A stretch of DNA of 64,000 bases from a virus (Duplodnaviria; Heunggongvirae; Uroviricota; Caudoviricetes), in the IMG/VR virus record IMGVR_UViG_3300042485_001768, one strand, 5' to 3'. A program made the translations under genes and the position numbers. The first letter of the stretch is position 1. Every line of letters starts with the position of its first letter. Below, one piece after another: positions 9,466 to 55,632 of the stretch. The notes beneath the pieces were generated by a model. The model worked only from the letters and a program-made list of their open reading frames with translations, ran no database searches and had not been told where the DNA came from.

Positions 9466-9512
9466 GTTCTTAAAAGCACAATAAATAAAGTAACTGAATT
9501 TTATAGGAGATT

Positions 9513-10232: not shown

Positions 10233-10400
10233 CCCTGGTCCACATGGACTTAGAGAATTATTATAAATTAACTTTCTCTTTAATTCAGTATCATAAATAT
10301 TCATTAACAGAGATTGAAAATTTGATACCGTGGGAGCGGGATATTTACGTTACTTTATTGAAGGCTCACTTGGAAGAAGAAAAACTTAAACAGCAACAAA

Positions 10401-36100: not shown

Positions 36101-36817
36101 ATGGAAGAAGATTTAAGAACTAAACATGCAGACATTTTAAAAGATCCAGAGGGTCCTTTGAATCATTATAATGTCATATATCCAGATGACCCTAGAACAG
36201 AAAATTATTTTGATTTCTGTGGGAATACCATCTATAGGGCATATAATGTATTGAGTTTGGAAGATAGGCAAGGACTATTGGAAGAAATTGATGATGAATT
36301 ATCTAAAAATCCTAATTGGGATTTATCTGTAGAAGCTACTAAAGAACTTAGTATTAGAAAATTAAAAAATAAAGAGTGTTGGGTTAACTTCTTTAAGATG
36401 GTAAAACATCATTTGTATAATTATGCAAAAGTAACAAATAATCCAAAAATTTTAGAATTAAAAATTCAATCTTATTGGGCGAAGAGATTGAGAGATGTCT
36501 CTGAAGAAAAATATGCAGAAGAATTGTATATAAACTACGGAAACACCCACAGTCATCAGCATTTTGATCTGGGATTAATTTTTTACCTACAAAATCCCTC
36601 AAGAATTTATGGAACAATAATTGAAAATGATGGGAGGGAAGTTATAATTCCTGGGGATGAAAATTCTTTACTGTTACATCATTCTGCGGTGAATCATCAA
36701 CCAGCACATCCACCTCCGATGGTTGCAAAAGATTATTATAGATGTGTCATTGTTGCAGATTTTATGTATCCAGATAAAGATAAAAAAATGAGAATCGCAG
36801 ATGACAGAAAAAGATAA
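36101..36817 (+). CDS. 2OG-Fe(II) oxygenase-like protein
   Basis: 238 aa. HSHQHFDLGLIFYLQN and LLLHHSAVNH suggest a HxD...H metal site. Confidence 0.4.
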   Translation: MEEDLRTKHADILKDPEGPLNHYNVIYPDDPRTENYFDFCGNTIYRAYNVLSLEDRQGLLEEIDDELSKNPNWDLSVEATKELSIRKLKNKECWVNFFKMVKHHLYNYAKVTNNPKILELKIQSYWAKRLRDVSEEKYAEELYINYGNTHSHQHFDLGLIFYLQNPSRIYGTIIENDGREVIIPGDENSLLLHHSAVNHQPAHPPPMVAKDYYRCVIVADFMYPDKDKKMRIADDRKR

Positions 36818-37102: not shown

Positions 37103-38245
37103 ATGCACTACAAATTTCCAACAATTACAAATTTGGATCAGGTTAAAACTGCCATTGAAGGTTATGATGAATTTCGCGTAACTAACAAAGGATTTTATAC
37201 CGTAGTGAATTATGCTGTAGCATTCGATAATACTTTTGATATTGTCGATGAGAATGATGTTAATGGAATGATACGTAGAGAATGTAGGGGATTAATTTTT
37301 GATGTTGATGGTAATTTAATCTCTCGTCCTTATCATAAATTTTTTAATTTGAATGAAAGGAAAGAAACCCATATCGACACAGTTGGATTTGACCTCCACA
37401 CTGTTCTTGAAAAGATGGATGGATCTATGATTAGACCAATTCCTTCTGAATATGGATTTAGACTCGCCACTAAAGCTGGGATTACTGATGTTGCAATAAA
37501 TGCTGAAATTTTTATTTCAGATAAACCAGAGTATGCAAATTTTATTAATCATTGTATTTCTAGAAATCTAACCCCAATTTTTGAATGGTGCTCTCGTAAA
37601 AACAGAATCGTAGTTGATTATCCAGAAGATAAATTAGTTCTTACTGCTTTGAGAAGTATTAAAAATGGTTCTTATTGTTCGTATAATAACCTTCGTCTTT
37701 TATCTGAACATTATGATATTCCTCTGGTTAAAAAATGGCCAGATAATATGGACATACAACAATTAGTTGAATATGTCCGTAATCTTGAAGATGAGGAAGG
37801 TATTGTTCTTCGTTTTGATAATGGACATATGTTAAAAATCAAAGCAGAAGAATATGTTCTTCGTCATAAATCTAAAGAACAAATCAGTCAAGAAAAAAAT
37901 GTCTTGGAAGTAATCATTGAAGATAAAGTTGATGATGTAATACCATTATTGAGTGATTCTGATGCCAACAGATTAAAATACTTCCAAAAGGCATTTTGGA
38001 TTAATGTTGACGAGGTTGCTTTTAATTTAGCAGAAGTTTATCAAAAAGGAAAAAACTATAAAGATAAGAAATCTTTTGCTGTGGAGTTTGTTCAAAAACT
38101 TAGTCCTCACTTGCAACCATTCATGTATGCAATGAATTCTGGAAAAGGTTCTAAGAGTCTTTTGATAGAATCTATTAAAAAGTCTACTACTTCACAAACT
38201 AAGATTGATCAATCACGTTGGATGTGGGGAAACCTAGTTTGGTAA
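37103..38245 (+). CDS. rnlA: RNA ligase 1 (T4 RnlA-like)
   Basis: 380 aa. ECRGLIFDVDGN, RPYHKFFNLNE and adenylation motif I EKMDGSMI match T4 Rnl1 (ECRGIMFE, RPMEKFFNLNE, KEDGSLV). Confidence 0.8.
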   Translation: MHYKFPTITNLDQVKTAIEGYDEFRVTNKGFYTVVNYAVAFDNTFDIVDENDVNGMIRRECRGLIFDVDGNLISRPYHKFFNLNERKETHIDTVGFDLHTVLEKMDGSMIRPIPSEYGFRLATKAGITDVAINAEIFISDKPEYANFINHCISRNLTPIFEWCSRKNRIVVDYPEDKLVLTALRSIKNGSYCSYNNLRLLSEHYDIPLVKKWPDNMDIQQLVEYVRNLEDEEGIVLRFDNGHMLKIKAEEYVLRHKSKEQISQEKNVLEVIIEDKVDDVIPLLSDSDANRLKYFQKAFWINVDEVAFNLAEVYQKGKNYKDKKSFAVEFVQKLSPHLQPFMYAMNSGKGSKSLLIESIKKSTTSQTKIDQSRWMWGNLVW

Positions 38246-38249
38246 ATTT

Positions 38250-38726
38250 ATGGAAAACGTATCAATAGAACCATATAAAACAATATTAGTTCTTAACGCA
38301 AGTTATGAACCAATAAATTTTTGTAATTGGAAAAGAGCCGTTGTGCTTTTACTAAAAGAGAAAGCACAATTATTGTCATCTAGAGTCATACGATTGGTAA
38401 ATTACATAAATTTACCAATTTCTAAAATAATTTCATGCAAACCATCTAGGCATTTAATTTACAAAAGAGATGACCACAGATGTCAGTATTGTGGTTCTAT
38501 AAAACAACTTACAATTGACCACGTAATTCCAAAATCTAAAGGTGGTAAAGATACTTGGGAAAATTTAGTGGTTGCTTGTATGCCATGTAATACAAAAAAA
38601 GGTGATAGAACTCCAGAAGAATGGGGAACTCCTCTATATCAAAAACCAAAAGCATTATATAATAAAATGCTAATATCTTTAAAATCTTCTAATGTTCCTG
38701 AATGGAAGGAGTACGTTTATGCCTGA
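38250..38726 (+). CDS. HNH endonuclease
   Basis: 158 aa. HRCQYCGS....LTIDHVIPKSKGGKDTWENLVVACMPCNTKK is a canonical HNH motif. Inserted between the ligase and kinase genes. Confidence 0.75.
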   Translation: MENVSIEPYKTILVLNASYEPINFCNWKRAVVLLLKEKAQLLSSRVIRLVNYINLPISKIISCKPSRHLIYKRDDHRCQYCGSIKQLTIDHVIPKSKGGKDTWENLVVACMPCNTKKGDRTPEEWGTPLYQKPKALYNKMLISLKSSNVPEWKEYVYA

Positions 38727-39195
38727 ATGTGTAATGTTGTGTGGAATTCCTACTTGTGGGAAGTCCACATATGTTAAAAAATTACAATCTTTAAACTATT
38801 GGAAAGATGCTGTAGTATTATCTACCGACAATTATATTGAGAAGCAGGCACAAAGGATGGGTCTGACTTATAATCAAATTTTTGATGATGTGATTGATGA
38901 TGCAACTCGGGAACTTGAACTTGAGTTCAATATGGCAAAGGACAAGGGAAAAGACATCATTTGGGATCAGACAAACTTATCAATTAAGTCCAGAAAGAAA
39001 AAACTTTCTAAACTTCCTTCCTATTACAGGAGAGAGGCGGTATACTTTGAAATAACATTGGAGGAAGCACTAAAACGAAATGAATGCCGTGAAGGCAAAT
39101 TCATTCCCAAAAGTATTCTTCATAGAATGTACCATCAGTTTGAATTTCCAACCTTAGAAGAGGGATTTGATTATGTTGAAAAAATTAAAGTTTAA
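38719..39195 (+). CDS. P-loop polynucleotide kinase-like protein (Pnk kinase-domain-like)
   Basis: Walker A MLCGIPTCGKST follows the ATG at 38719 (MPECVML...), which overlaps the HNH stop. The ORF track's 38692 start would overlap HNH further. About 158 aa with a kinase-like D..TN layout. Confidence 0.6.
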   Translation: MPECVMLCGIPTCGKSTYVKKLQSLNYWKDAVVLSTDNYIEKQAQRMGLTYNQIFDDVIDDATRELELEFNMAKDKGKDIIWDQTNLSIKSRKKKLSKLPSYYRREAVYFEITLEEALKRNECREGKFIPKSILHRMYHQFEFPTLEEGFDYVEKIKV

Positions 39196-39400
39196 ATCTC
39201 CATACAATCATCATTTTGAATATACTAGCGATATTGAACGTATCGTAAAAATCTTTGCCGATCGTGGATATGAGATTTCACATCAAGATGCTGTTCATGC
39301 TTGGGAAGAATTTTCTGACAGTATGTGTGCAGGTTGGATGTGCTTAGGTGAAGATGATGAAGTCTTTCAAGACGCATTTTATTATTTTGAGGAAGTTTGA
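39167..39400 (+). CDS. hypothetical small protein
   Basis: 77 aa ORF between the kinase and phosphatase genes. Confidence 0.3.
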   Translation: MIMLKKLKFKSPYNHHFEYTSDIERIVKIFADRGYEISHQDAVHAWEEFSDSMCAGWMCLGEDDEVFQDAFYYFEEV

Positions 39401-39864
39401 TGGCAGAAAAAAAGAAAAATTGTTTTATATTTGACTTAGATGGAACGATTTGTAATGTAAGTCATCGTAGACAATATGTTGTAACCAAACCACGTAACTG
39501 GGATGCTTGGAACAAAGGTCTCATTAATGATGTACCTAACGTAGCAGTTCAAAAGGTATTCCAAGCACTTCGCAATGCTAATGATTACGATACTGATTTG
39601 ATTATTGTTTCTGGTCGCTCAGACGATTATAAAGAACAAACGGTCAAGTGGTTGACTGATAATGAAATCTTTTACGATGAAATTTATATGAGAAAGTATA
39701 AAGATCATCGGGATGATGCTGTTGTTAAAGCAGAAATTGCTGACGAAATTGAAAAAACTCACCAAATTCTTGGTGTGTTTGATGACCGTCAGAGGGTTGT
39801 GAATATGTGGATTGAGCGTGGTATCTGGGTGTTCGACGTTGGGCAAGGTAAGGGCAATTTTTGA
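39397..39864 (+). CDS. HAD-family phosphatase (Pnk 3'-phosphatase-domain-like)
   Basis: 155 aa. FIFDLDGTI (DxDGT motif I), IVSGRS (motif II), and GVFDDR.RVVNMW (motif III/IV-like). Confidence 0.65.
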   Translation: MMAEKKKNCFIFDLDGTICNVSHRRQYVVTKPRNWDAWNKGLINDVPNVAVQKVFQALRNANDYDTDLIIVSGRSDDYKEQTVKWLTDNEIFYDEIYMRKYKDHRDDAVVKAEIADEIEKTHQILGVFDDRQRVVNMWIERGIWVFDVGQGKGNF

Positions 39865-39929
39865 ACTGGCACATACAATCCCACATCTGAGTTTTTTTAA
39901 CCTATAATCATCTTGTACGAAAATTAACA

Positions 39930-40217
39930 ATGAGTTTTTCCAAAACTGTTTCCGTTTTCGCTGCACTTGCAAGTATTTTTGCTGCTGGAGCTACTGGTTG
40001 GAAACTTGCAAATTCCCAACAAGAAGTTCCTTTGAATCCATTAGACCAAAAAGTAATGGAGTTGGAAAAAAAGATTGAAGAAGTAACAACTGAAAAACCA
40101 ATTGAGCAAGTGGTACAACCACAAGTAGAATTGCAACCTAAACCAACTATACCTCCAGTACCACCACTACCCCCGCTTCCAGCACCTACAGAGGACACAA
40201 ATGAACAAACTCCGTAA
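39930..40217 (+). CDS. small secreted/membrane-anchored Pro-rich protein
   Basis: 95 aa with a signal-anchor (VSVFAALASIFAAGA) and C-terminal PTIPPVPPLPPLPAPT. Confidence 0.4.
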   Translation: MSFSKTVSVFAALASIFAAGATGWKLANSQQEVPLNPLDQKVMELEKKIEEVTTEKPIEQVVQPQVELQPKPTIPPVPPLPPLPAPTEDTNEQTP

Positions 40218-41244
40218 ACTTGCTTCCATCAAACCTATCACCTATATCAAACCGATTGAAGGTGCTGATGCTATTGAGTGTGCTATTGTTGATGGTGGTT
40301 GGCCTGTAGTTGTCAAAAAAGGTGAGTATAAGGTTGGGGATATTGCCATCTACCTTGAGATTGATAGTTGGGTGCCCCACAAACTTGCTCCATTCCTTAG
40401 TAAGGGTCAAGAACCCCGTGAGTATAATGGTGTAAAGGGTGAGCGTCTTCGTACTGTTAAACTTCGTGGTCAAGTTAGTCAGGGTCTTCTGCTGCCGATT
40501 GAACTTACGTTCTGGCGTGATATTGGCACGGACCTTACAGAATCTCTGGGTATTCAGAAGTGGGAACCGCCCATCCCTGCTCAACTTCAGGGTACGATGA
40601 AGGGTAACTTCCCACACTTCATTCCTAAAACTGATCAAGAGCGTTGCCAAAATCTTCGTAAAGACATCTTTGAGACTCATAAAGAGGAGATTTATGAAGT
40701 CACCGTCAAACTTGATGGTAGTAGCACCACTATCTATGTCAAAGATGGTGAGGTTGGTGTATGTTCGCGGAATATTGACCTCATTGAAACTGAGGGCAAT
40801 AGTTTCTGGAAAGCAGCACGGGAGCAGAATATTATCGAACCTCTTCTTGAATTGTGTAAAGAAAAGGGTGAAGAATATGCTATTCAAGGTGAATTGATTG
40901 GTGAAGGTATTCAGGGTAATCCTGAAAAAATCAAAGGTCAACGATTCTATTTGTTTGATATTTACAGTATTACCTGTGGTGAATATTTTAAAGCAAATGT
41001 TCGATATAGTATTCTCGATAAACTAAAGATGCTTGGTGCTGATATTGAGCACGTTCCTATTGTTGATGTTGATGTTCGTGTTGCTCAAGCATACGACAGT
41101 ATTGATGACCTTCTTGAGTTTGCTGAGGGTCCATCGTTGAATCCTCAGACCAAACGTGAAGGTCTGGTCTTCAAATCGTGGGAAAGTGACTTTACTTTTA
41201 AAGCAATTTCTAACTCTTATCTCCTAAAGCATAAAGACCGATGA
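40201..41244 (+). CDS. second ATP-dependent RNA/polynucleotide ligase (KxDG nucleotidyltransferase with N-terminal OB-like domain; DraRnl/NgrRnl Rnl5-like)
   Basis: 347 aa. Motif I VTVKLDGSSTTIY. The KxDG motif is preceded by a ~150-aa N-terminal domain rather than followed by an OB domain, as in the Rnl5 family. Higher GC than surroundings. Confidence 0.55.
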   Translation: MNKLRKLASIKPITYIKPIEGADAIECAIVDGGWPVVVKKGEYKVGDIAIYLEIDSWVPHKLAPFLSKGQEPREYNGVKGERLRTVKLRGQVSQGLLLPIELTFWRDIGTDLTESLGIQKWEPPIPAQLQGTMKGNFPHFIPKTDQERCQNLRKDIFETHKEEIYEVTVKLDGSSTTIYVKDGEVGVCSRNIDLIETEGNSFWKAAREQNIIEPLLELCKEKGEEYAIQGELIGEGIQGNPEKIKGQRFYLFDIYSITCGEYFKANVRYSILDKLKMLGADIEHVPIVDVDVRVAQAYDSIDDLLEFAEGPSLNPQTKREGLVFKSWESDFTFKAISNSYLLKHKDR

Positions 41245-42041
41245 AAGTAAAAGTTGTATCCGATTTACATTTAGAATGTTGTGAATACGGTCACGGTGTT
41301 CCTGACCTTGGAGAGGGAGAAGTCTTAATTCTTGGTGGTGATATTCTCTGTGCTCGACACTTCAAAAAAGACGGAAACCTTCACAAGGTTTATACCGACT
41401 TCTTGAAGAAGTGTGCCGACAACTTCATGCACGTTCTGTATATCGCAGGAAATCATGAAGCATATGGATACAACTATGAAGGAACTTGGAATGTTCTCAA
41501 AGAAAACCTTCCCAATGGTATTCATCTGATGGAAGATAGTGTAGTGAAGATTGCGGACTGGGTTTTTATTGGTTCGACTTTTTGGACTGATTTCCGCAAT
41601 GGAAATGCCCTGGAAATGATGGAAGCAGCACAGTGTATGAATGATTATAAGACCATTCGCATTACTCCAAAGTATCGCAAGATGAATCCTGATGATACTT
41701 ATGCCTTTCATAACAAATCAAAGCAATTTCTACTGGATCAGTTAGAACTTTTTAAAAATCAAAAAATTTGGGTTCTCACGCACCATGCACCATCTTATCA
41801 ATCAGTTCATGAGCAGTATAAAACAAGTGGTATTGCGAATGGTGCATATGTCAGCGATCTTGATGATTTTATTTTAGAACATCCAGAGATTAGAATTTGG
41901 TCTCATGGACATACACATAACTCATTTGATTACAAAATTGGTGATTGTAGAGTTGTCTGTAATCCCAGAGGGTACTATAATGGATATAATAATTCTGGTT
42001 TGAATTTAGATTTTGATCCAAATTTTGAAATTGAGTTATGA
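41241..42041 (+). CDS. calcineurin-like metallophosphoesterase
   Basis: 266 aa. Motifs VVSDLH, GGDI, AGNHE, THHAP and SHGHTH. Confidence 0.75.
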   Translation: MKVKVVSDLHLECCEYGHGVPDLGEGEVLILGGDILCARHFKKDGNLHKVYTDFLKKCADNFMHVLYIAGNHEAYGYNYEGTWNVLKENLPNGIHLMEDSVVKIADWVFIGSTFWTDFRNGNALEMMEAAQCMNDYKTIRITPKYRKMNPDDTYAFHNKSKQFLLDQLELFKNQKIWVLTHHAPSYQSVHEQYKTSGIANGAYVSDLDDFILEHPEIRIWSHGHTHNSFDYKIGDCRVVCNPRGYYNGYNNSGLNLDFDPNFEIEL

Positions 42042-42235: not shown

Positions 42236-42395
42236 TACTGCTAGATTTCCTTATCCAAATTTCCCATTTAGATTAGAATACGAAGAAAACAAAGTTAAAA
42301 GAGTTTGTCATTTTGAGTGTAAAGAACATCTCAATAAATATTTGGAACGTCATAAACTTAAAAAGAATAAAGTTACAATCGAAACTCGTAAATGA
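42189..42395 (+). CDS. hypothetical small protein
   Basis: 68 aa ORF with a CHFEC motif. Confidence 0.25.
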   Translation: MRHPKINFMVEQKMIDTARFPYPNFPFRLEYEENKVKRVCHFECKEHLNKYLERHKLKKNKVTIETRK

Positions 42396-43225
42396 AAATA
42401 TTTAAAGTCCCTCACATAGAATTACATGTAACGCATACTTGCAATTTTAGTTGTGAAGGATGTTCTCATTATTCTAATCATGGACATTCTGGGTCTTTAA
42501 CTTTAAAAGAATGTGATGAATGGTTGTATTCTTGGAGTAGAAGATTACAACCAGAACTATTCACTATACTTGGTGGTGAGCCAACTCTTAATAAAAATTT
42601 GATTGATATAATTTATCTGGTTCGGATGATGTGGCCAGATACTGCAACTGCTATTGATCTTGTATCAAATGCTAGTTTTTTACATACACATCCAAATTTA
42701 CCGCAGGCATTATTGGATACTGACAGTACTTTAGCAATATCTATTCATAGTAAAGTACATGCTGGATATGTAAATAAATTTAAAAAAGGTTATAGATTGA
42801 CAAAAGAATGGAGAAAGCAATACGGAATTAATTTAGAATTTTGGGATTTTACCACAGATACCTGGACTCCTCAATATAATGGATTTGGGAATAATATGCT
42901 TCCCTATGAAGATAATAATCCAAGAAAGAGTTGGGAGAAGTGTCTATCTAAAAAAGCTCTACAAATACATGAGGGTAAATTGTGGAAATGTCCACCATTG
43001 GCATATTTACCAATGCAAGCAAAAAAATATAATCTTGACAAAAAATGGGATCCTTATTTAAAATATAAACCATTAGATTCGGATTGTTCTGATCAAGAAC
43101 TTGAAGAATTTTTAAATAAAGAAGATGAATGTTTTTGTTCTATGTGCCCTGCAAATATGGATAATCCTTATAAAAAAAATGATCCAACTCTTCCAGTAAG
43201 TTATTGGGAGAAGTTAAATTCATGA
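42392..43225 (+). CDS. radical SAM enzyme
   Basis: 277 aa. HVTHTCNFSCEGCSHY is a CxxxCxxC 4Fe-4S/SAM cluster motif near the N-terminus. GGEPTLN is a glycine-rich SAM motif. Confidence 0.7.
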   Translation: MKIFKVPHIELHVTHTCNFSCEGCSHYSNHGHSGSLTLKECDEWLYSWSRRLQPELFTILGGEPTLNKNLIDIIYLVRMMWPDTATAIDLVSNASFLHTHPNLPQALLDTDSTLAISIHSKVHAGYVNKFKKGYRLTKEWRKQYGINLEFWDFTTDTWTPQYNGFGNNMLPYEDNNPRKSWEKCLSKKALQIHEGKLWKCPPLAYLPMQAKKYNLDKKWDPYLKYKPLDSDCSDQELEEFLNKEDECFCSMCPANMDNPYKKNDPTLPVSYWEKLNS

Positions 43226-44646
43226 TTACCTGGGGAATATCATCAGAGAGTCATAATGCTGCACTTTCTGTATTTGTTAATGATAGTCTAGTCTTCGCAA
43301 GCGAAAGTGAAAGATTCAGTGGTATAAAAAATGATGCTTATTTAAATAATGGCATTATTGACTATGCACTAAAGTTTGGAAAACCAGAATTGGTATGCTG
43401 GTATGAGAATCCATATAAGAAAACGTTTAGACAACTTCTTGCAGGTCAAGGATGGATTCAGAACGTCAAAAAGTATGTTGATGTTCCAATCAAGTATTAT
43501 GACCATCACTATACTCATGCTTGTGCTGGTTACTTTACCAGTCAGTTTGACGAGTGTTGTGTGGTGGTTATTGATGCTATAGGAGAATTCCAAACACTTA
43601 CTATCTGGGAAGCAAGAGGTAATAAATTAAAACTTAAATTTCAACGTAAATATCCACACAGCGTTGGACTTTGGTATTCTGCAATGACACAAAGGTGTGG
43701 ATTAAAACCAAATGAAGAAGAGTATATCCTCATGGGCATGTCTGCTTATGGGGATAAAACACGTTATGAAGATGATATCTATAAAGATTTCATAGGATTT
43801 AGAACAGCAACCTTTAAAAAGAATTTACATAAAGGATGTGTTGATTGGAGACCAGATATTAAAAACACTTTTGATATCGCTGCTGCAACTCAAAACATTT
43901 ATGAAACAATTTTTAGAGATATTATGCAAGTAGCATCCAATAAAGTAAAAAGTAAAAATTTAGTTCTAATGGGTGGATGTGCGTTAAATTGTGTTGCAAA
44001 TCCAATTGCATATTATTATTTTGACAATTTATGGATTATGCCTGCACCTGGAGATAATGGGTCTGCCATTGGTTCTGTGCTTGCACATAAAAAGAAACAT
44101 ATTGATTGGCATGGACCTTATCTTGGATATTATATTAAATCAGTTGCATCAAACGAAGAAATTGTTAACCACTTAATGGATTATGGTCTTTGTGGAGTTG
44201 CAAGAGGTTGTGCAGAGTTTGGTCCTAGGGCACTGGGGAATCGTAGTTTATTTGCAGACCCTAGAGATCCACAAATTAAATCAATGGTCAACAATATTAA
44301 ACAAAGACAACAGTTTAGGCCATTTGCACCAGTAATTATGGAAGAATATGTACACGATTACTTTAGAATGCCTACAAATTCTTCACCATACATGCAATAT
44401 GCTGTAAAATGTAGATATTCTAAAAAGTTTCCAGCAATTGTTCACATAGATAAAACAAGTAGAGTTCAAACTGTTAATAGACAACAAAATACAGAACTTT
44501 ATGATCTTTTAAAGATGTGGAATGAAAAAACAGGTTGTCCTATGTTATTGAATACTAGTTTGAATATTAAAGGGAAACCGATGGTAAATGATGAAAAAGA
44601 TTGTAAAGAATGGGAAGAAACTTATGGGGTTAAAATATTCTCATGA
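43204..44646 (+). CDS. carbamoyltransferase (NodU/CmcH/TobZ family)
   Basis: 480 aa. N-terminal domain IKYYDHHYTHACAGYFTSQFDECCVVVIDAIGE matches the carbamoyltransferase N-domain HH..HA..A...S.F..A.V..DG.GE signature. C-terminal domain present. Confidence 0.7.
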   Translation: MGEVKFMITWGISSESHNAALSVFVNDSLVFASESERFSGIKNDAYLNNGIIDYALKFGKPELVCWYENPYKKTFRQLLAGQGWIQNVKKYVDVPIKYYDHHYTHACAGYFTSQFDECCVVVIDAIGEFQTLTIWEARGNKLKLKFQRKYPHSVGLWYSAMTQRCGLKPNEEEYILMGMSAYGDKTRYEDDIYKDFIGFRTATFKKNLHKGCVDWRPDIKNTFDIAAATQNIYETIFRDIMQVASNKVKSKNLVLMGGCALNCVANPIAYYYFDNLWIMPAPGDNGSAIGSVLAHKKKHIDWHGPYLGYYIKSVASNEEIVNHLMDYGLCGVARGCAEFGPRALGNRSLFADPRDPQIKSMVNNIKQRQQFRPFAPVIMEEYVHDYFRMPTNSSPYMQYAVKCRYSKKFPAIVHIDKTSRVQTVNRQQNTELYDLLKMWNEKTGCPMLLNTSLNIKGKPMVNDEKDCKEWEETYGVKIFS

Positions 44647-45380
44647 ATATTATAGATAATTTAAACAATAAAAACTTTTTTCCTATTGATAAACCAAATA
44701 ACAAATTTTGGTATGACCAAGATACAAAAGAACGATATATTCATAATTTAAAAGTTCAACCAGAAGAATGGCATTATAGAGATAAAATAGTTTATTATTT
44801 GACAAATTCTTTTGGATATAGAACTAAGCCATTTAAAGATATTGATTGGAGAAAATGTATTGTTTTATTTGGGTGTTCTTACATTTACGGTGTTGGTAGT
44901 GCAGAAGATGAAACTGTAACTGGATATTTGGAACAAATAACTGGAATTCCTGTAATTAATATGGGAGCACCTGGATCTTCACCAACCTTTTCTTTACATA
45001 ATTCTGGAATTTTGAGTGCAAAATATCCAAATCCAAAAGCAGTTGTTTATGGTTGGTCTTCTCAATATAGATGTCCTTTTTATACTAAAAATGAAGTTAT
45101 TCATTGTGGTAATTGGTTAAAAGATTCTAAAAAAATGGGAGAATCGTGGAATAGTAATGAAGAACATCCTGCAGTAAATTTAAAATTATCATCTATTATT
45201 TCTAAAGAAATGTGGAATAATAGAACAAAATATTATGAATTTACATTCTTTAAGACAGTTTCGGACGTTTTAAATTGTGATTATATAAAACAAGTTGATT
45301 ATGCAAGAGATTTGGGACATTCTGGAAAAGAAACTAATAAAATTGCTGCTGAAACTATTGCTAAAAATTTGAACTTGTGA
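44643..45380 (+). CDS. SGNH/GDSL-hydrolase-like protein (paralog A)
   Basis: 245 aa. VLFGCSYIYGVGSAED...ITGIPVINMGAPGSS...VVYGWSS is collinear with ORF 45836..46642. Confidence 0.45.
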   Translation: MNIIDNLNNKNFFPIDKPNNKFWYDQDTKERYIHNLKVQPEEWHYRDKIVYYLTNSFGYRTKPFKDIDWRKCIVLFGCSYIYGVGSAEDETVTGYLEQITGIPVINMGAPGSSPTFSLHNSGILSAKYPNPKAVVYGWSSQYRCPFYTKNEVIHCGNWLKDSKKMGESWNSNEEHPAVNLKLSSIISKEMWNNRTKYYEFTFFKTVSDVLNCDYIKQVDYARDLGHSGKETNKIAAETIAKNLNL

Positions 45381-45435
45381 TAAAATTTAATTTTTAAAAC
45401 AAACACTATGGCAACAAGAACTTATACTCAAAAAG

Positions 45436-45726
45436 ATGGGACTATTTGGGAATGGAAAGAAACTTCCGAACTTCTCAGCATTCTTGCCCAAATCCATAGC
45501 CAAAAAAATAATGAGCAACAAAAATCTAATTGACGAATCATTTTATATCAAACAATCCCAATGGGGAACATGGAGGTCATTTGATGTAAACGGGAAAGAA
45601 TTAATCACTGCATTAAATGAAGAGAATTGTATAAGTGCCACAAGATTTTACTTAAAAGGTGTGCAGGAAGGGTGGAGTAATGTTGATTCTGTTAAATATG
45701 AAGGCACTGTGGGTGGCAAATTATAA
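45436..45726 (+). CDS. hypothetical protein
   Basis: 96 aa ORF between the two paralogs. Confidence 0.35.
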   Translation: MGLFGNGKKLPNFSAFLPKSIAKKIMSNKNLIDESFYIKQSQWGTWRSFDVNGKELITALNEENCISATRFYLKGVQEGWSNVDSVKYEGTVGGKL

Positions 45727-45835
45727 TGAGTAATTTAATTCAAAAGATTATTATACATATTAGTGAATATATTGAAAAAATAAAACTAAAAAGATTAGAG
45801 AAAAAAATTAAAAAAGAAGATAACTTCATATATAA

Positions 45836-46642
45836 ATGATAAACCGATTTAACTTAAAATTTAATAATAGAAATATTATTAAATCAATTAGAAATAATCA
45901 ATTTTTACCCCTTGCAAATCATACAGTTTATAATGAAAATGGATATATACCTGCTAATAGGTTAACTCTAAAGGGAACTTGGGATTATTCTGGAACAGAT
46001 AACCAAGAAAAATATTATGAACATTTACAAACACAACCTGAAGATTGGTATTATCGTCATAATAAAGTAAAATATACTTTAAATTCTGAAGGATATAGAA
46101 CTAAGGAATTTGATGAATTAGATTGGAAAAATTCTATCGTTATGTTTGGGTGCTCGTATGTATTTGGAACTGGAGTTGATGATAAACATACTATTTCTTC
46201 TTTTTTAGAGGAGATAACTGGTATTCCCGTTATTAACATGGGTGTAGGTGGGTCATCTATTCAATTGGCACTGCATAATTCCATGATTTTAAATGATCGT
46301 TATGGACCACCTGCAGCTGTTGTATATGGATGGACTTCATTAATGAGGTATCTTGTATATCACCCACTTTATTTTGATAATAAAATACCTACAGACAGCG
46401 TAAAAGTAAAACCTGCTGAGCATCTGGTTCCTTTTAACATGATGAATGTTAAAATAGTTCGTAATCTTTGGAAGGATAAATGTAAATATTATGAATTTAG
46501 TCTTTTTGATACGACAGCAAAAATTTTAAATTGCGACTTTTATCAACCAAAAGACGATTATGCAAGAGACTTAAGGCATTGTGGTATAGAATCAAATAAA
46601 GAATTTGCAGAACTTATAAATGTAAATTTATCACTATTATGA
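45836..46642 (+). CDS. SGNH/GDSL-hydrolase-like protein (paralog B)
   Basis: 268 aa. QPEDWYYRH..YRTKEFDELDWKNSIVMFGCSYVFGTGVDD..ITGIPVINMGVGGSS..VVYGWTS is a paralog of 44643..45380. Confidence 0.45.
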   Translation: MINRFNLKFNNRNIIKSIRNNQFLPLANHTVYNENGYIPANRLTLKGTWDYSGTDNQEKYYEHLQTQPEDWYYRHNKVKYTLNSEGYRTKEFDELDWKNSIVMFGCSYVFGTGVDDKHTISSFLEEITGIPVINMGVGGSSIQLALHNSMILNDRYGPPAAVVYGWTSLMRYLVYHPLYFDNKIPTDSVKVKPAEHLVPFNMMNVKIVRNLWKDKCKYYEFSLFDTTAKILNCDFYQPKDDYARDLRHCGIESNKEFAELINVNLSLL

Positions 46643-46781: not shown

Positions 46782-47054
46782 ATGATTAAAAATATATTCA
46801 ATAAATTTTTTGATCGTTTTTTAAAAGATTATGACTTAAAAACTTATAATATAAATTTGGTAGATAGGAAGAATGAAAGAATTTCTCTCGCAGATGAAAT
46901 TGCAAACCTTCATTCTAGAATAAGATATCTTGAAAGAGAAAATGTTTGTATGTCAAATGCAATGTATGAGATGGAGAACAGACTACAAGCACAAATTGAC
47001 AAAATTAATCCTACAGTGTTAGATTTAAAGAACTTTAGTTTGGGAGACACTTAA
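46782..47054 (+). CDS. hypothetical small protein
   Basis: 90 aa ORF. Confidence 0.3.
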   Translation: MIKNIFNKFFDRFLKDYDLKTYNINLVDRKNERISLADEIANLHSRIRYLERENVCMSNAMYEMENRLQAQIDKINPTVLDLKNFSLGDT

Positions 47055-47706: not shown

Positions 47707-48267
47707 ATGGCAGTATTAACCGCAACTGGTATTCTATTTAATGATAGTACGTCATTAAATTCAAGATATGATGTTATAGCACAATCATCAGTAGCAATTT
47801 TTTATCAAGCTTCGGCACCTACTGGGTGGACTAAAGTAACAACACATAATGATAAGGCACTTAGAGTTGTTAGTGGGACTGGTGGCGGATTTGGATATGG
47901 TGGAGTATCTGGTGCAGGAGGAATAACATTTACTTCTGCATTCCCTTCTAATTTAAAAAATCTCAGTATTCCAATTAGTGTTAGTGCTGGAATTGCTGGA
48001 ACAGTTGGTAATACAACTCTTTCTGTTTCGCAAATTCCAAATCATACTCACGATAGCTTAACTGGTGGCACTAGTTCTGCAGCATCTGGTGGTGCTTCAT
48101 TTAGAACTCCAGGAACTAATGCTACTGGTGGAGTAGTAAGTCCTACAGGAACAGGAGGAGCACACAACCACCCCTTTACGGGAAGTGTTGGGATTACTTC
48201 AACTGCAACTGGATCTTTGGATTTAAGAGTCCAATATATAGATGTAATTATCTGCAGCTTCGATTAA
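47707..48267 (+). CDS. phage tail-collar domain protein (paralog 1)
   Basis: 186 aa. GNTTLSVSQIPNHTHD and GGAHNHPFTG match the tail-collar LPxHTH signature. Gly/Ser/Thr-rich. Confidence 0.6.
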   Translation: MAVLTATGILFNDSTSLNSRYDVIAQSSVAIFYQASAPTGWTKVTTHNDKALRVVSGTGGGFGYGGVSGAGGITFTSAFPSNLKNLSIPISVSAGIAGTVGNTTLSVSQIPNHTHDSLTGGTSSAASGGASFRTPGTNATGGVVSPTGTGGAHNHPFTGSVGITSTATGSLDLRVQYIDVIICSFD

Positions 48268-48268
48268 T

Positions 48269-48826
48269 ATGGCATCTTTAACTAGTGGCGGGATAAGATT
48301 TAGTTTAACTGATTTCACCAATATAATTGAATCTTTTTATTGGATGTATCCTGCGGGGACTAAAAAGGTATTTTATCAAGCAGAAGCACCAACTGGTTGG
48401 GTAAAAGATACAACTCAAAATAATAAAATGTTAAGAGTTGTTAGTGGAAGTGGTGGAGTTTCTGGTGGAACAATTTCAGCATCTAATGCCTTTATATCTA
48501 CAGGAACTGAAGTATCTTTCCCATTTGCTGGTTCTTATCCCGCAAGTGGTACTGTTGGTAATACTACTCTTTCATTAGGACAACTTCCAAATCACACTCA
48601 TGAAGGAACTATGGGTTCAAATGGAGGTTCTTCTGCAACTCCATTCAGTAATGCTGGTTCTAGAACTGTTTTTGGTAGTGTTGCGACTAGTGGTATGCTA
48701 GAATCTACTGGTGGAGGTTCTCATACACATCCTTGGTCTGGTACACTAAACTTAAATGCTAATATTACTAGCACTACAGATCTTAGTGTGCAATATGTTG
48801 ATGTGATTATTTGCACATTATCATAA
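48269..48826 (+). CDS. phage tail-collar domain protein (paralog 2)
   Basis: 185 aa. GNTTLSLGQLPNHTHEG, GGSHTHPWSG. Collinear with the previous ORF; both end in SVQYVDVIIC. Confidence 0.6.
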   Translation: MASLTSGGIRFSLTDFTNIIESFYWMYPAGTKKVFYQAEAPTGWVKDTTQNNKMLRVVSGSGGVSGGTISASNAFISTGTEVSFPFAGSYPASGTVGNTTLSLGQLPNHTHEGTMGSNGGSSATPFSNAGSRTVFGSVATSGMLESTGGGSHTHPWSGTLNLNANITSTTDLSVQYVDVIICTLS

Positions 48827-49994: not shown

Positions 49995-51161
49995 ATGAAT
50001 CAATCTTTAGTTGAAAACGGATATATTATAATACCAAATTTTATATGTTCGGAACGTGCAAAAAATTTATCCAAAGAATTTGCACAAGTATGTAAAGAAA
50101 ATAATATAGATGGAGATGAGCAAGTTCCGACTTCAAAATCTCAATATGACTATATTTCTTTTTTAGAATTACTTTGTGAAAAAACTCCTGAAGTATCATC
50201 TATTATTGGCGAAACTGTTTTACCAACTTATAGTTATGCTAGAGTATATGAAAAAGGAAGCACTTTACCATCGCATACTGACAGAAAAGAATGTGAAATA
50301 TCAATAACTATCAATTTAGATTCTGATGTATCTTGGCCTATTTGGGTCATGACACCAGATAAAAAGCAAAAAAGAATCATTTTAAATCCAGGGGATGGTC
50401 TTCTTTACTTGGGCATAGATATACCTCATTGGAGAGAAGAATTAAAAGGAAATTATTGCACTCAAGTATTTTTACATTATGTAAGAAGTAGAGGACCTAA
50501 TGTTGCCTTGTATTTTGATAAAGAGAATAGAAAATTTTGCAACTTCAATGAGATTAAAAAAAGTCCAGAAGTGATGATAAAAACTGAAAATTATAAGAGT
50601 AAAAATCCATTGGATGAATACATTAAAATATATTACTCTGCAATTCCAGATTATGTTTGTGATTTGATTTTAGAAGAGTATAAAAATTGTGAAGATTGGA
50701 ATCCAAGTAGAACAGGAAACGGAGAAGTAAATAAATTCGTTCGCAATTGTGATACTATTGGATTGTCGATGGCAAATGTTATCAACAAAAATTTAGAAAC
50801 CAGAAAGAAAATCGATACCTTATTATTTGAACATTCTGGTAATACCCTTAAAAAATATGTTGAAGAATTTCCACACTGCCAATTAATTTCTGATAGTGGA
50901 TATGATCTCTTGAGATATGATATGGGAGGATATTATTCTATTCATACAGATTCTCATAAAACTACACCTAGAACAGTGTCCTGTTCTTTTAATTTGAATG
51001 ATGATTATGAAGGTGGAGAATTTGCATTCTTTGATAGAGAATTAATCATTAAAGCACCAAAAGGGTCTGCAATTGTATTTCCATCGAATTTTATGTATCC
51101 TCATGAAATTATGGAAGTTAAATCTGGATCCAGATATTCTATTGTGACTTGGTTCGTTTAA
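49995..51161 (+). CDS. tandem-domain 2OG-Fe(II) oxygenase / prolyl-4-hydroxylase-like protein
   Basis: 388 aa with two jelly-roll-like halves: LPSHTDRKECEISITINL...IPHW and YSIHTDSH...VSCSFNLNDDYEGGEFAFFD...MYPHEIMEV. Confidence 0.45.
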   Translation: MNQSLVENGYIIIPNFICSERAKNLSKEFAQVCKENNIDGDEQVPTSKSQYDYISFLELLCEKTPEVSSIIGETVLPTYSYARVYEKGSTLPSHTDRKECEISITINLDSDVSWPIWVMTPDKKQKRIILNPGDGLLYLGIDIPHWREELKGNYCTQVFLHYVRSRGPNVALYFDKENRKFCNFNEIKKSPEVMIKTENYKSKNPLDEYIKIYYSAIPDYVCDLILEEYKNCEDWNPSRTGNGEVNKFVRNCDTIGLSMANVINKNLETRKKIDTLLFEHSGNTLKKYVEEFPHCQLISDSGYDLLRYDMGGYYSIHTDSHKTTPRTVSCSFNLNDDYEGGEFAFFDRELIIKAPKGSAIVFPSNFMYPHEIMEVKSGSRYSIVTWFV

Positions 51162-51716: not shown

Positions 51717-52130
51717 ATGGATACAAATCTTTTCACTCAAACTAGTGATGAAAAATCTATTTTGTTAAAAACAGGGTTCTTATGTTTAAAATTGACTAAA
51801 AATTATTTTAATGAAGTTTCTTCTATTGCTAAGAAATTAATTAGAGATAATATTGATGTAAGAAGTAACAAGTTCAAATTAAAAGAACTTGATAATTACC
51901 TTGATTTGGGTTCTTTTTTTATTGAGGAAACAAAAAAATATTATAAAGTTTATCAATTTACAGATGAATCTGATTCAAAAATTCACTGTTTTGTTGATAA
52001 AGAGAGTGGTTTAGTTTATAAACCACTCAATAGAAATTCTCCTAATAAAAGAAGAGTGTATGAAATTGATAAGTGTATATTACATGCTGATTGGAGAGGG
52101 TATTATTTGAATGATGTGACACCTCAGTAA
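51717..52130 (+). CDS. hypothetical protein, HCF(V/I)DK..G.VYK family (paralog of 55177..55632)
   Basis: 137 aa. The C-terminal IHCFVDKESGLVYKP....ILHADWRGYYL mirrors VHCFIDKKTGEVYKS....LLQNADWAGSYLY in ORF 55177. Confidence 0.4.
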   Translation: MDTNLFTQTSDEKSILLKTGFLCLKLTKNYFNEVSSIAKKLIRDNIDVRSNKFKLKELDNYLDLGSFFIEETKKYYKVYQFTDESDSKIHCFVDKESGLVYKPLNRNSPNKRRVYEIDKCILHADWRGYYLNDVTPQ

Positions 52131-55176: not shown

Positions 55177-55632
55177 ATGACCACCACCTTCGCTGAATAC
55201 TCTGCTTCTGCTGAGGCAAGGAAGGACATTGCAACTGCTGTTCTGGGTCATACGTATGCTCTCTGTGAGGCACTGCGTCAGAACTACATTGACTATTCCA
55301 TTCGTAGTCATGAACGTTCTTTACAGCGTCTTGAGGGTAATACTGACACTGGTATTAAATATCACAAAGAACAGATTGCTAAACTCAAGCAAGGAACTTG
55401 TGATTACGATTTCTACCCCGAGTCTGGTAGAAAGTATCATAAGGTAATCATGAATGCCAATGGTAATAAGTCCGTTCATTGCTTCATCGACAAGAAAACT
55501 GGTGAAGTCTACAAGTCTGCATCATGGAAGGCACCTGCCAAGGGTGTGCGATATGATCTGCGTATCATCAATCAGCGTGAGTGGTTGCTTCAAAATGCTG
55601 ATTGGGCAGGTAGTTATCTTTATATGCGTTGA
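55177..55632 (+). CDS. hypothetical protein, HCF(V/I)DK..G.VYK family (paralog of 51717..52130)
   Basis: 151 aa with shared C-terminal motifs (see ORF 51717). Higher GC. Confidence 0.4.
   Translation: MTTTFAEYSASAEARKDIATAVLGHTYALCEALRQNYIDYSIRSHERSLQRLEGNTDTGIKYHKEQIAKLKQGTCDYDFYPESGRKYHKVIMNANGNKSVHCFIDKKTGEVYKSASWKAPAKGVRYDLRIINQREWLLQNADWAGSYLYMR

What the first reader, a model, noticed from the sequence alone, without database searches (positions are those of the whole stretch)
42392..46642. Radical SAM - carbamoyltransferase - duplicated SGNH-like hydrolase cluster (candidate modification pathway)
Five consecutive overlapping genes encode:
- a radical SAM enzyme (CNFSCEGC)
- a NodU/CmcH/TobZ-type carbamoyltransferase
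- two paralogous proteins with a GDSL-like FGCSY(I/V)(Y/F)G block, flanking a 96-aa ORF

This set is not part of the T4 core and looks like a small biosynthetic or modification pathway. Radical SAM enzymes and group transferases are established parts of phage nucleobase hypermodification pathways (7-deazaguanines, 5-substituted pyrimidines). Carbamoyltransferases otherwise O-carbamoylate sugars and antibiotics. Possibilities are therefore a nucleic-acid base modification, or a host surface-glycan or metabolite modification. The target is not deducible from sequence.
Basis: partly seen in the sequence, partly recalled or inferred. Interest (0 to 1): 0.7.

Follow-up and report, generated by a model that had tools for sequence, protein, structure and literature searches.

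The report
Conserved phage sugar-tailoring enzyme cassette
An uncultured marine T4-like phage carries a tightly linked, widely conserved set of three enzymes (a radical SAM enzyme, a carbamoyltransferase and an unclassified SGNH hydrolase present twice) that most likely modifies a sugar or glycan rather than a DNA base, although the final target is still unknown.

Summary
All five ORFs are at the stated coordinates. They encode a radical SAM enzyme, a NodU/TobZ-type carbamoyltransferase (CT), two SGNH-type paralogs (41% identical) and a 96-aa DUF7468 protein.

The genes are not chance neighbours. In 41 distinct IMG/VR loci that carry an rSAM ortholog, 32 keep the order rSAM-CT-SGNH, 9 keep rSAM-SGNH, and none lacks the SGNH gene. 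A related set (rSAM, CT and SGNH-like proteins with the same Gly-Cys-Ser motif) recurs in Ralstonia jumbo phage RsoM2USA and in cultured Pelagibacter phage Mosig.

- **CT.** It resembles NovN, GdmN and TobZ. It is only 24% identical to the validated phage 5hmC carbamoyltransferase and lacks that enzyme's thymidylate-synthase context.
- **Gene context.** Relatives of the rSAM and SGNH genes repeatedly sit among glycosyltransferase, DegT, epimerase and Wzy genes.

Best reading: a sugar or glycan tailoring cassette whose acceptor is unknown. DNA hypermodification and peptide maturation are not excluded. I found no published description of the cassette or of this SGNH subfamily.

The parts
42392..43225 (+). 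Twitch-type radical SAM enzyme, 277 aa. It has the CxxxCxxC cluster (C17/C21/C24), a GGEP motif, and four further invariant Cys (C184, C200, C249, C252) consistent with an auxiliary [4Fe-4S] cluster.
43222..44646 (+). NodU/CmcH/TobZ-family O-carbamoyltransferase. It is 474 aa from ATG 43222; the ORF finder's TTG start at 43204 gives 480 aa. It has a Kae1-like N-terminal domain and a YrdC-like C-terminal domain.
   Evidence: Pfam Carbam_trans_N (E 1.5e-36) and Carbam_trans_C (E 1.3e-51). phrog_1601, E 3.5e-102. phmmer against PDB gives NovN 155 bits, 7xb6 149, GdmN 141 and TobZ 116, with the HHxxH, D and GD motifs aligned. ATG 43222 overlaps the rSAM TGA stop as ATGA.
44643..45380 (+). SGNH-fold hydrolase paralog A, 245 aa, from an unclassified subfamily with block I Gly-Cys-Ser (FGCSY). 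No signal peptide or transmembrane segment is evident from the sequence.
45436..45726 (+). DUF7468 small protein, 96 aa, function unknown. It is an accessory gene of the carbamoyltransferase-containing form of the cassette.
   Evidence: Pfam PF24272, E 8.6e-25, and phrog_744. It is present within 8 genes downstream in 24 of 33 loci with CT and in 0 of 9 loci without CT (Fisher p 1e-4, not corrected for phylogeny). In two gene orders, L035 and L047/L049, it lies between the rSAM and CT genes.
45836..46642 (+). SGNH-fold hydrolase paralog B, 268 aa, with all catalytic blocks intact.
   Evidence: 41% identical to paralog A, E 3e-65. Blocks I, II, III and V are conserved in alignment A1. A second, B-type SGNH copy (52-56% identical) is present in 10 of 38 related loci, all of which also carry CT.
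46782..47054 (+). Conserved 90-aa ORF (cluster c19) that often accompanies the cassette. Function unknown; membership of the cassette is uncertain.
   Evidence: Detected at 36-76% identity downstream of the cassette in many related loci, sometimes before and sometimes after the second SGNH gene. It has only weak coiled-coil-like Pfam noise.

Best explanation
This is a functionally linked phage cassette that most likely tailors a carbohydrate: a nucleotide-sugar, an aminocyclitol-like sugar or a glycan.

Proposed steps:
1. The twitch radical SAM enzyme reductively cleaves SAM and abstracts a hydrogen from a sugar carbinol carbon. It then passes the electron to its auxiliary [4Fe-4S] cluster, which oxidises (or epimerises) a secondary alcohol, as SpeY and BtrN do.
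2. The carbamoyltransferase makes carbamoyl-adenylate from carbamoyl phosphate and ATP in its YrdC-like domain. It transfers the carbamoyl group to a hydroxyl in its Kae1-like domain, as TobZ, NovN and NodU do.
3. The one or two cytoplasmic SGNH proteins (Ser79/Asp223/His226) remove or transfer an O-acyl group on the same substrate.

What is shown:
- the enzyme superfamilies and their intact catalytic motifs;
- the strict rSAM-SGNH linkage and the frequent inclusion of CT;
- the recurrence of the same three enzyme types in unrelated phages;
- the carbohydrate gene context of homologs.

What is inferred: the reaction chemistry, the order of the steps, and that the substrate is a sugar. The final acceptor (host envelope glycan, virion glycoprotein, glycosylated DNA or a free metabolite) is not determined.
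For: Linkage.
- 41 distinct IMG/VR loci carry an rSAM ortholog of at least 63% identity. Of these, 32 are rSAM-CT-SGNH, 9 are rSAM-SGNH, and none lacks SGNH.
- The set persists down to 60%, 55% and 34% pairwise identity for rSAM, CT and SGNH.
- The first three genes are joined by ATGA start/stop overlaps.

Independent recurrence.
- RsoM2USA has the order DUF6071, rSAM (460 aa), DUF6071, DUF6071, CT; this CT is 46% identical to the window's.
- DUF6071 shares the unusual GCS block I motif and aligns to the SGNH family by hhalign at 76% probability, E 2e-5.
- Pelagibacter phage Mosig has a GCS-type SGNH-like protein, a DegT aminotransferase, a twitch-like rSAM directly followed by CT, a GT8-like protein and an NAD-dependent epimerase/dehydratase.
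- In marine virus AG-345-D19, CT is directly followed by an rSAM homolog.

Carbohydrate theme.
- Cellular rSAM homologs (35-50% identical) often neighbour GT2, GT25-sulfotransferase and Wzy_C genes.
- The S-SCSM2R homolog sits among five genes annotated as glycosyltransferases, a DegT fragment and an annotated inosamine amidinotransferase.
- Distant SGNH-family members sit beside GT7, UDP-glucose/GDP-mannose dehydrogenase, epimerase/dehydratase, DegT and B12-rSAM genes.
- The best-characterised relatives of the CT are NovN, GdmN and TobZ.
- The SGNH fold matches carbohydrate esterases.
Against: - No glycosyltransferase or nucleotide-sugar gene lies next to the cassette in the window or in its 41 orthologous loci. 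The nearest is a GT11-like gene about 12 kb away. The immediate neighbours are 2OG-Fe(II) oxygenase-like genes, talC and unknown genes.
- The carbohydrate theme rests on more distant homologs and on structural resemblance, not on orthologs of known function.
- RsoM2USA's version sits among DHFR, ligase and helicase genes rather than sugar genes.
- One distant SGNH member lies next to dCMP deaminase and gp23, with no rSAM nearby.
- The top fold match of the SGNH protein is a peptide hydrolase, CgnD.
- The correlated divergence of the three genes would be seen for any co-inherited neighbours.
- The window covers only part of the genome, so a 5hmC pathway encoded elsewhere cannot be excluded.
Confidence: 0.55

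Rival explanations
1. DNA (or nucleotide-pool) base hypermodification. The carbamoyltransferase would convert 5-hydroxymethylcytosine to 5-carbamoyloxymethylcytosine, as in the phage enzyme of Yang et al. 2021. The rSAM and SGNH proteins would add or trim further groups.
For: - A phage TobZ-family CT has been shown to carbamoylate 5hmC in DNA, RNA and dNTPs (PMC8670742).
- Radical SAM enzymes take part in phage thymidine hypermodification (from my own knowledge).
- The RsoM2USA version lies near DHFR, ligase and helicase genes.
- One distant SGNH member lies next to a dCMP deaminase.
- The window is only part of the genome.
Against: - The CT is only 24% identical (85 bits) to the validated 5hmC enzyme, which is no closer than family level.
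- In that study, 5hmC-type CTs had thymidylate synthase, PRA-PH and dCMP deaminase within 3 kb, while CTs on unmodified contigs were flanked by unrelated genes such as glycosyltransferases.
- None of those domains occurs in about 75 scanned window ORFs or within 10 kb on either side in L170/L171.
- Nine loci keep rSAM-SGNH without CT, so the conserved core does not need carbamoylation.
- The closest relative of the rSAM acts on a sugar.
Confidence: 0.13
2. Peptide or protein maturation (RiPP-like, by analogy with crocagin). The rSAM would modify a small precursor or a virion protein, the SGNH protein would act as a leader-peptide hydrolase like CgnD, and the CT would carbamoylate the product. 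The neighbouring 2OG-Fe(II) oxygenases would contribute hydroxylations.
For: - The crocagin cluster also has a carbamoyltransferase (CgnI) and a dioxygenase (CgnC) (PMC10070186).
- Small conserved ORFs (DUF7468, c16, the 90-aa ORF) and several 2OG oxygenase-like genes flank the cassette.
- DUF7468 co-occurs with CT.
- RiPP rSAM maturases (SuiB, SkfB, CteB, PqqE) appear among the weaker fold hits.
Against: - The rSAM is small (277 aa). It has no RRE/leader-binding domain, and it has a single four-Cys twitch motif rather than a two-cluster SPASM domain.
- SpeY outscores every peptide maturase by 8 Z units.
- CgnD's margin over ordinary esterases is small (13.9 against 12.6).
- DUF7468 is conserved over its C-terminal 67 residues, is a broad phage family, and also occurs far from the rSAM gene in S-SCSM2R. 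This is unlike a hypervariable core peptide.
- The same 2OG oxygenase genes are common in cyanophages that lack the cassette.
Confidence: 0.1
3. The genes are neighbours in a hypervariable island with no shared pathway. The rSAM-SGNH pair and the CT would act on unrelated substrates and be kept together only by synteny.
For: - The region is a variable island in T4-like marine phages, and genes are tightly packed and overlapping throughout.
- CT is absent from 9 of 41 loci.
- The CT family occurs alone in many cyanophages.
- Co-divergence is expected for any linked genes.
Against: - SGNH follows the rSAM gene in 41 of 41 loci. CT is inserted exactly between them in 30 loci and after DUF7468 in the other two gene orders.
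- The same three enzyme types recur with non-orthologous members in RsoM2USA and Mosig, and CT-rSAM adjacency recurs in AG-345-D19.
- The BFVD library contains a 602-aa phage protein annotated as Radical_SAM that matches the SGNH model over 183 columns, which may be a fusion.
Confidence: 0.07

Closest known systems
SpeY (PDB 7wzv), the twitch radical SAM dehydrogenase of spectinomycin biosynthesis; more distantly BtrN, BlsE and DesII
   Same: - Similar size (277 against about 320 aa).
- A CxxxCxxC cluster plus a C-terminal four-Cys auxiliary-cluster (twitch) motif that aligns in sequence.
- No RRE or SPASM extension.
   Different: - Only 21% identical.
- It is encoded by phages, and by diverse Proteobacteria, Planctomycetes and Verrucomicrobia at 35-50% identity, not in an aminoglycoside cluster.
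- Substrate and reaction are untested.
- It is always paired with an SGNH protein, which SpeY is not, as far as I know.
TobZ / NovN / GdmN / NodU O-carbamoyltransferases
   Same: - Both Pfam domains are present.
- The conserved His/Asp metal motifs align.
- phmmer scores are 116-155 bits.
   Different: - It is shorter (474-480 aa against 570-700).
- Its NodU equivalog score of 145 is far below the cut-off of 1000, so it is not an ortholog of any characterised member.
- It is 27-30% identical to the usual cyanophage CT and 46% to the RsoM2USA CT.
Phage 5-hydroxymethylcytosine carbamoyltransferase (Yang et al. 2021, eLife; PMC8670742)
   Same: Same enzyme family, and also phage-encoded.
   Different: - 24% identity.
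- No thymidylate-synthase homolog, PRA-PH or dCMP deaminase nearby.
- It is flanked instead by rSAM and SGNH genes.
Crocagin RiPP cluster (CgnD SGNH-like hydrolase, CgnI carbamoyltransferase, CgnC dioxygenase)
   Different: - No CgnB/CgnE-type peptide-binding proteins and no recognisable precursor were found.
- A radical SAM enzyme is present here but is not part of the crocagin steps described in that paper.
- 14% identity to CgnD.
SGNH/GDSL carbohydrate esterases (CE2, CE3 and acetyl-xylan esterases) and Pfam DUF6071
   Same: - The fold and all four catalytic blocks are present.
- DUF6071 shares the Gly-Cys-Ser block I motif and the W-[ST]-x3-R-x3-Y motif.
   Different: - No GDSL or SGNH Pfam model detects it.
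- Block I is GCS, not GDS.
- It has an N-terminal extension of about 70 residues.
- The relation to DUF6071 is only moderately supported (76% probability).
Glycan and 'LPS' gene islands of large cyanomyophages (P-SSM2, S-SM2, S-SSM7, S-SCSM2R) and the sugar island of pelagiphage Mosig
   Same: - These are non-core islands in marine T4-like phages that mix glycosyltransferases, sugar aminotransferases, epimerases, carbamoyltransferases and rSAM enzymes.
- Their function is also untested.
   Different: The window's cassette is a compact three-enzyme unit without adjacent glycosyltransferases. No isolate phage among the 50,697 records matches the SGNH protein (tblastn), and only two records match the rSAM.

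Membership tests
Radical SAM superfamily | CxxxCxxC [4Fe-4S] motif, a SAM-binding GGE motif, and a Pfam PF04055 score above the gathering cut-off | tested here: met
   C17/C21/C24 and G61-G62-E63-P64 are invariant. PF04055 scores 31.0 bits against a cut-off of 29.5.
Twitch-domain rSAM dehydrogenases/epimerases (SpeY/BtrN type) | A single auxiliary [4Fe-4S] cluster bound by four Cys in a short C-terminal domain, with fold similarity | tested here: met
Twitch-domain rSAM dehydrogenases/epimerases (SpeY/BtrN type) | Oxidation or epimerisation of a sugar or cyclitol secondary alcohol | not testable with these tools
   This needs anaerobic enzymology.
NrdG (anaerobic RNR activase) / QueE | A score above the NCBIfam equivalog cut-off, and a partner NrdD or queCD genes | tested here: not met
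   NrdG scores 19-21 bits against cut-offs of 126-131. The window protein has no QueE hit. No NrdD or QueC/D domains occur among the scanned window ORFs.
NodU/CmcH/TobZ O-carbamoyltransferase family | Carbam_trans_N (Kae1-like) and Carbam_trans_C (YrdC-like) domains with conserved metal-binding His/Asp | tested here: met
   The domains score 126.9 and 174.9 bits. HHxxH, D and GD align to NovN and 7xb6.
NodU ortholog | A score above the NF041651 equivalog cut-off | tested here: not met
   144.8 bits against a cut-off of 1000.
Phage 5hmC carbamoyltransferase system | A dCMP hydroxymethylase (thymidylate-synthase homolog), PRA-PH and dCMP deaminase co-located with the CT | tested here: not met
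   None is present in about 75 scanned window ORFs or within 10 kb on either side in L170/L171. The criterion is taken from PMC8670742. The rest of the genome was not seen.
Phage 5hmC carbamoyltransferase system | Close sequence relationship to the validated enzyme | tested here: not met
   24% identity, 85 bits.
SGNH/GDSL hydrolase superfamily | Blocks I (Ser), II (Gly), III (Asn) and V (Asp-x-x-His), and the alpha/beta/alpha fold | tested here: met
SGNH/GDSL hydrolase superfamily | Detection by the Pfam Lipase_GDSL or Lipase_GDSL_2 models, and a canonical GDS(L) block I | tested here: not met
   No Pfam hit at E 0.1. Block I is G-C-S.
Pfam DUF6071 | Profile match | tested here: inconclusive
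   No hmmscan hit. hhalign of A1 against A5 gives 76% probability, E 2.2e-5, over 123 columns that include the GCS block.
RiPP biosynthetic cluster | A precursor peptide with a variable core, and an RRE or SPASM domain on the rSAM | tested here: not met
   The 277-aa rSAM has no N-terminal extension and only four auxiliary Cys. DUF7468 is conserved over its C-terminal 67 residues. No precursor-like ORF was identified.

The most novel reading that the evidence does not exclude
Marine T4-like phages, and convergently a pelagiphage and a Ralstonia jumbo phage, encode a previously unrecognised aminoglycoside-like tailoring pathway. It would combine radical oxidation or epimerisation, O-carbamoylation and SGNH-catalysed acyl editing. 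The product would be an unusual carbamoylated sugar, displayed on the virion or the infected cell or released as a metabolite, that changes phage-host recognition or defence. The GCS-type SGNH protein would be an obligate partner of a twitch radical SAM enzyme, a pairing with no characterised precedent.
Probability: 0.15. Interest if true: 0.85.

Novelty: new variant of a known kind. Interest (0 to 1): 0.6.

Why it matters
Each of the three enzymes belongs to a known superfamily. I found no description of their fixed association in phages in the searchable literature.

- The SGNH subfamily has no Pfam, PHROG or NCBIfam model, although it has at least 572 cluster representatives at E 1e-30 or better.
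- The cassette is common in marine metagenomes; single 90%-identity clusters hold 100-200 member sequences.
- It is absent from cultured cyanophages.

If it tailors a sugar, it points to radical chemistry in phage-directed glycan modification. It also gives a concrete, testable handle on the long-unexplained 'LPS'/glycan and 2OG-oxygenase islands of marine myophages.

If it instead acts on DNA, it would define a new hypermodification route.

Two cultured phages with related gene sets, Mosig and RsoM2USA, make both ideas experimentally testable.

Tried and rejected
- **Close cultured relative.** A megablast of 7 kb against 50,697 phage records found none.
- **SGNH family size.** The single-sequence word-index search suggested a tiny family of 30 clusters. 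The exhaustive profile search showed this was a sensitivity artefact: 2,705 representatives at E 1e-10 or better.
- **CT as a lineage-specific insert.** My first impression, from L007-L009, was that CT had been inserted into an rSAM-SGNH pair. The wider scan rejected this: CT is present in 32 of 41 loci.
- **Possible rSAM-SGNH fusion in L015.** The 598-aa rSAM there was tested as a fusion. It is a B12-binding rSAM with no SGNH part. The 602-aa BFVD protein that may be such a fusion could not be retrieved.
- **Bacterial neighbourhoods of rSAM homologs.** There is no universally conserved partner, only recurrent glycosyltransferase and Wzy genes. ORF calling in high-GC DNA was noisy.
- **SGNH/DUF6071 homologs in AG-345-D19, C48C1 and RAS14.** None was found.
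- **Promoter and terminator scan.** Nothing above chance.
- **Literature.** Searches for 7wzv/SpeY and DUF6071 found nothing usable. The SpeY reaction is therefore cited from the PDB title and from memory. The last paper search was wasted on a loose query.
- **afdb50 fold search.** The library was unavailable.
- **NrdG or QueE identity.** Rejected.

Full report
**Observation**

The five ORFs are present on the + strand at the stated coordinates.
- rSAM, 42392-43225 (277 aa): carries CNFSCEGC and passes the Pfam Radical_SAM gathering cut-off (31 against 29.5 bits).
- CT, 43204/43222-44646: matches Carbam_trans_N and Carbam_trans_C strongly and phrog_1601, 'Nol-like carbamoyltransferase'.
- ORFs 44643-45380 and 45836-46642: paralogs, 41% identical, E 3e-65.
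- The 96-aa ORF between them: Pfam DUF7468 / phrog_744.

The rSAM stop and the CT ATG at 43222 overlap as ATGA, and so do the CT stop and the start of paralog A at 44643. The last two genes are separated from their upstream genes by short gaps. A consensus scan finds no promoter or terminator signal above chance in this stretch. G+C content (0.30-0.32) matches the rest of the window.

**The two 'SGNH-like' proteins**

No Pfam, PHROG or NCBIfam model detects them.
- An alignment of 28 family members has invariant Ser79 (FGCSY, block I), Gly108 (block II), Asn120 (block III) and Asp223-x-x-His226 (block V).
- The AlphaFold model is confident (pLDDT 95.5).

The family first looked tiny (30 clusters). 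An exhaustive profile search then found 572 cluster representatives at E 1e-30 or better and 2,705 at E 1e-10 or better. It is therefore a sizeable SGNH subfamily that current models do not cover. Its hallmark is Gly-Cys-Ser instead of Gly-Asp-Ser in block I.

**The radical SAM enzyme**

It is not NrdG or QueE. Every NCBIfam hit covers only the generic N-terminal core and lies far below its cut-off. Besides C17/C21/C24 and GGEP, four further Cys (C184, C200, C249, C252) are invariant in 27-30 homologs. That pattern matches a single auxiliary cluster, the 'twitch' arrangement.

**The carbamoyltransferase**

It is a true family member. The metal-binding His/Asp motifs are conserved, and phmmer gives NovN 155 bits, 7xb6 149, GdmN 141 and TobZ 116. 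It is not a NodU ortholog (145 bits against a cut-off of 1000).

**Is the cluster more than neighbours?**

A scan of IMG/VR with an rSAM alignment returned 72 loci. tblastn and ORF clustering and a de-duplicated count gave these results for the 41 distinct loci whose rSAM is at least 63% identical:
- 32 have the order rSAM-CT-SGNH. In two gene orders (L035 and L047/L049), DUF7468 lies between the rSAM and CT genes.
- 9 have rSAM-SGNH without CT.
- None lacks the SGNH gene.
- 10 of 38 have a second SGNH copy.
- 20 of 24 have a second rSAM paralog 3-4 kb upstream.
- DUF7468 accompanies 24 of 33 loci with CT and 0 of 9 without (not corrected for phylogeny).

The set persists down to 60%, 55% and 34% pairwise identity for rSAM, CT and SGNH. 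The identity matrices of the three genes correlate at r 0.81-0.88, although any co-inherited neighbours would show this.

The stronger evidence is recurrence with non-orthologous parts.
- **Ralstonia jumbo phage RsoM2USA.** Its CT is the best isolate match (46%). The gene order is DUF6071, 460-aa rSAM, DUF6071, DUF6071, CT. DUF6071 proteins carry NGCSM, GGSN and DHP..H motifs and align to the window's SGNH family by hhalign at 76% probability, E 2e-5, across the GCS block.
- **Cultured Pelagibacter phage Mosig.** It has a GCS-type SGNH-like protein (local HMM E 3e-6 and 7e-4), a full-length DegT aminotransferase, a 274-aa twitch-like rSAM directly followed by a CT (33% identical), a GT8-like protein and an NAD-dependent epimerase/dehydratase.
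- **Marine virus AG-345-D19.** A CT, apparently split and with its domains in swapped order, is directly followed by an rSAM homolog.
- **BFVD.** A 602-aa phage protein annotated as Radical_SAM matches the SGNH model. This may be a fusion, but I could not retrieve it.

**What is the substrate?**

Evidence pointing to carbohydrate:
- The rSAM is closest to SpeY, and sugar-acting BtrN, BlsE and DesII are among the hits.
- Cellular rSAM homologs at 35-50% identity, in Mesorhizobium, Bradyrhizobium, Planctomycetes and Verrucomicrobia, often neighbour GT2, GT25-sulfotransferase and Wzy_C genes.
- The 41%-identical homolog in Synechococcus phage S-SCSM2R sits among five annotated glycosyltransferases, a DegT fragment and an annotated inosamine amidinotransferase. 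Similar islands occur in L015 and L172.
- Distant SGNH-family members lie beside GT7, UDP-glucose/GDP-mannose dehydrogenase, epimerase/dehydratase, DegT and B12-rSAM genes.
- The characterised relatives of the CT carbamoylate hydroxyl groups on sugars or natural products.

Evidence against the DNA route:
- The validated phage 5hmC carbamoyltransferase (PMC8670742) is only 24% identical to this CT.
- In that study, 5hmC-type CTs had thymidylate synthase, PRA-PH and dCMP deaminase within 3 kb. CTs on unmodified contigs were flanked by unrelated genes such as glycosyltransferases.
- None of those domains occurs in about 75 scanned window ORFs or within 10 kb on either side in L170/L171.

Caveats:
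- The window is only part of the genome.
- The cassette has no adjacent glycosyltransferase in the 41 orthologous loci.
- RsoM2USA's version sits among DHFR, ligase and helicase genes.
- One distant SGNH member lies next to a dCMP deaminase.

The crocagin analogy (SGNH hydrolase CgnD, carbamoyltransferase CgnI, dioxygenase CgnC) keeps a peptide-maturation reading alive. Against it, the rSAM lacks an RRE or SPASM domain, and DUF7468 does not look like a precursor peptide.

**Genomic setting**

The window comes from a divergent marine T4-like myophage. Its tail-tube cap protein is only 30-47% identical to those of cyanomyophages. No isolate phage matches the SGNH protein, and only two phage records match the rSAM.

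The cassette lies in a syntenic island. In relatives, the upstream side carries 2OG-Fe(II) oxygenase-like genes. The downstream side carries talC in relatives (absent from the window), DUF7219 and two tandem 185-aa paralogs. In this sub-lineage an RNA-repair set (RnlA, HNH, Pnk kinase, Pnkp phosphatase, an Rnl2-like ligase and a metallophosphoesterase) is inserted just upstream.

**Verdict**

The cassette is real, conserved and apparently undescribed (literature searches). The most likely function is carbohydrate tailoring through radical oxidation or epimerisation, O-carbamoylation and acyl editing. The acceptor is unknown.

| Claim | Confidence |
|---|---|
| The genes form a functional unit (my estimate) | about 0.8 |
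| The substrate is a sugar | 0.55 |
| DNA hypermodification | 0.13 |
| Peptide or protein maturation | 0.10 |
| Coincidental neighbours | 0.07 |

Noticed in passing
window 37103-42041: An RNA-repair-like gene set lies directly upstream of the cassette: RnlA-like ligase (37103-38245), HNH endonuclease (38250-38726), P-loop kinase (38692-39195), HAD_PNKP phosphatase (39397-39864), PHA02142-OB/RNA_ligase (40201-41244) and a metallophosphoesterase (41241-42041). Most related loci lack the last two. The 40-42 kb stretch has raised G+C (0.40 against about 0.32), which suggests a more recent acquisition.
   Followed up: partly
window 47707-48267 and 48269-48826: Two tandem paralogs of about 185 aa, rich in Gly/Ser/Thr, share a GNTTLS..Q.PNHTH motif and have no Pfam hit. 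They are conserved downstream of the cassette in almost all related loci (cluster c0). They may be tail-collar or fibre-like proteins.
   Followed up: no
window 36101-36817; L007 3311-3970: In relatives, gene c3 (about 220-240 aa, no Pfam hit) always directly follows the second, upstream rSAM paralog. The window keeps c3 but has lost that rSAM. This may be a second rSAM-partner pair parallel to rSAM-SGNH.
   Followed up: no
L002 (MH319720.1) 8929-11175: In marine virus AG-345-D19 the carbamoyltransferase appears split and permuted. An ORF matching the C-terminal (YrdC-like) domain precedes an ORF matching the N-terminal (Kae1-like) domain, and an rSAM homolog follows directly.
   Followed up: partly
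L077-L089 (IMG/VR loci): More distant rSAM homologs (43-47% identical) sit in arrays of three to five rSAM paralogs on both strands, with no SGNH or CT gene. This is an expansion of twitch-like rSAM genes in large marine phages, one of them on a 282-kb contig.
   Followed up: no
L001 (Synechococcus phage S-SCSM2R) 6140-12893; L015 3063-8843: These phage islands combine an rSAM homolog with a truncated 195-aa DegT aminotransferase, an amidinotransferase-like protein, a B12-binding rSAM and several glycosyltransferases. The set is reminiscent of aminoglycoside/aminocyclitol tailoring genes.
   Followed up: partly
window 61330-62142, 31864-32703, 58628-59728, 53413-54231, 51717-52130 and 55177-55632: Other accessory genes in the window: a Dam-type N6-adenine methyltransferase, an Eco57I-like methylase fragment, a GT11 (fucosyltransferase-family) glycosyltransferase, an SPFH/Band 7 protein and two DUF7717 proteins.
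   Followed up: no
BFVD entry A0A6J5LTW5: A 602-aa protein of an uncultured phage, annotated as containing a Radical_SAM domain, matches the SGNH model over 183 columns (E 2e-9). It may be a natural rSAM-SGNH fusion. The sequence could not be retrieved with the tools.
   Followed up: partly
window 49995-51161: A 388-aa protein with two 2OG-Fe(II)-oxygenase-like halves matches PHROGs whose label is 'ferrochelatase'. That label looks like an annotation artefact; the 2OG-Fe(II) oxygenase PHROG also matches.
   Followed up: no
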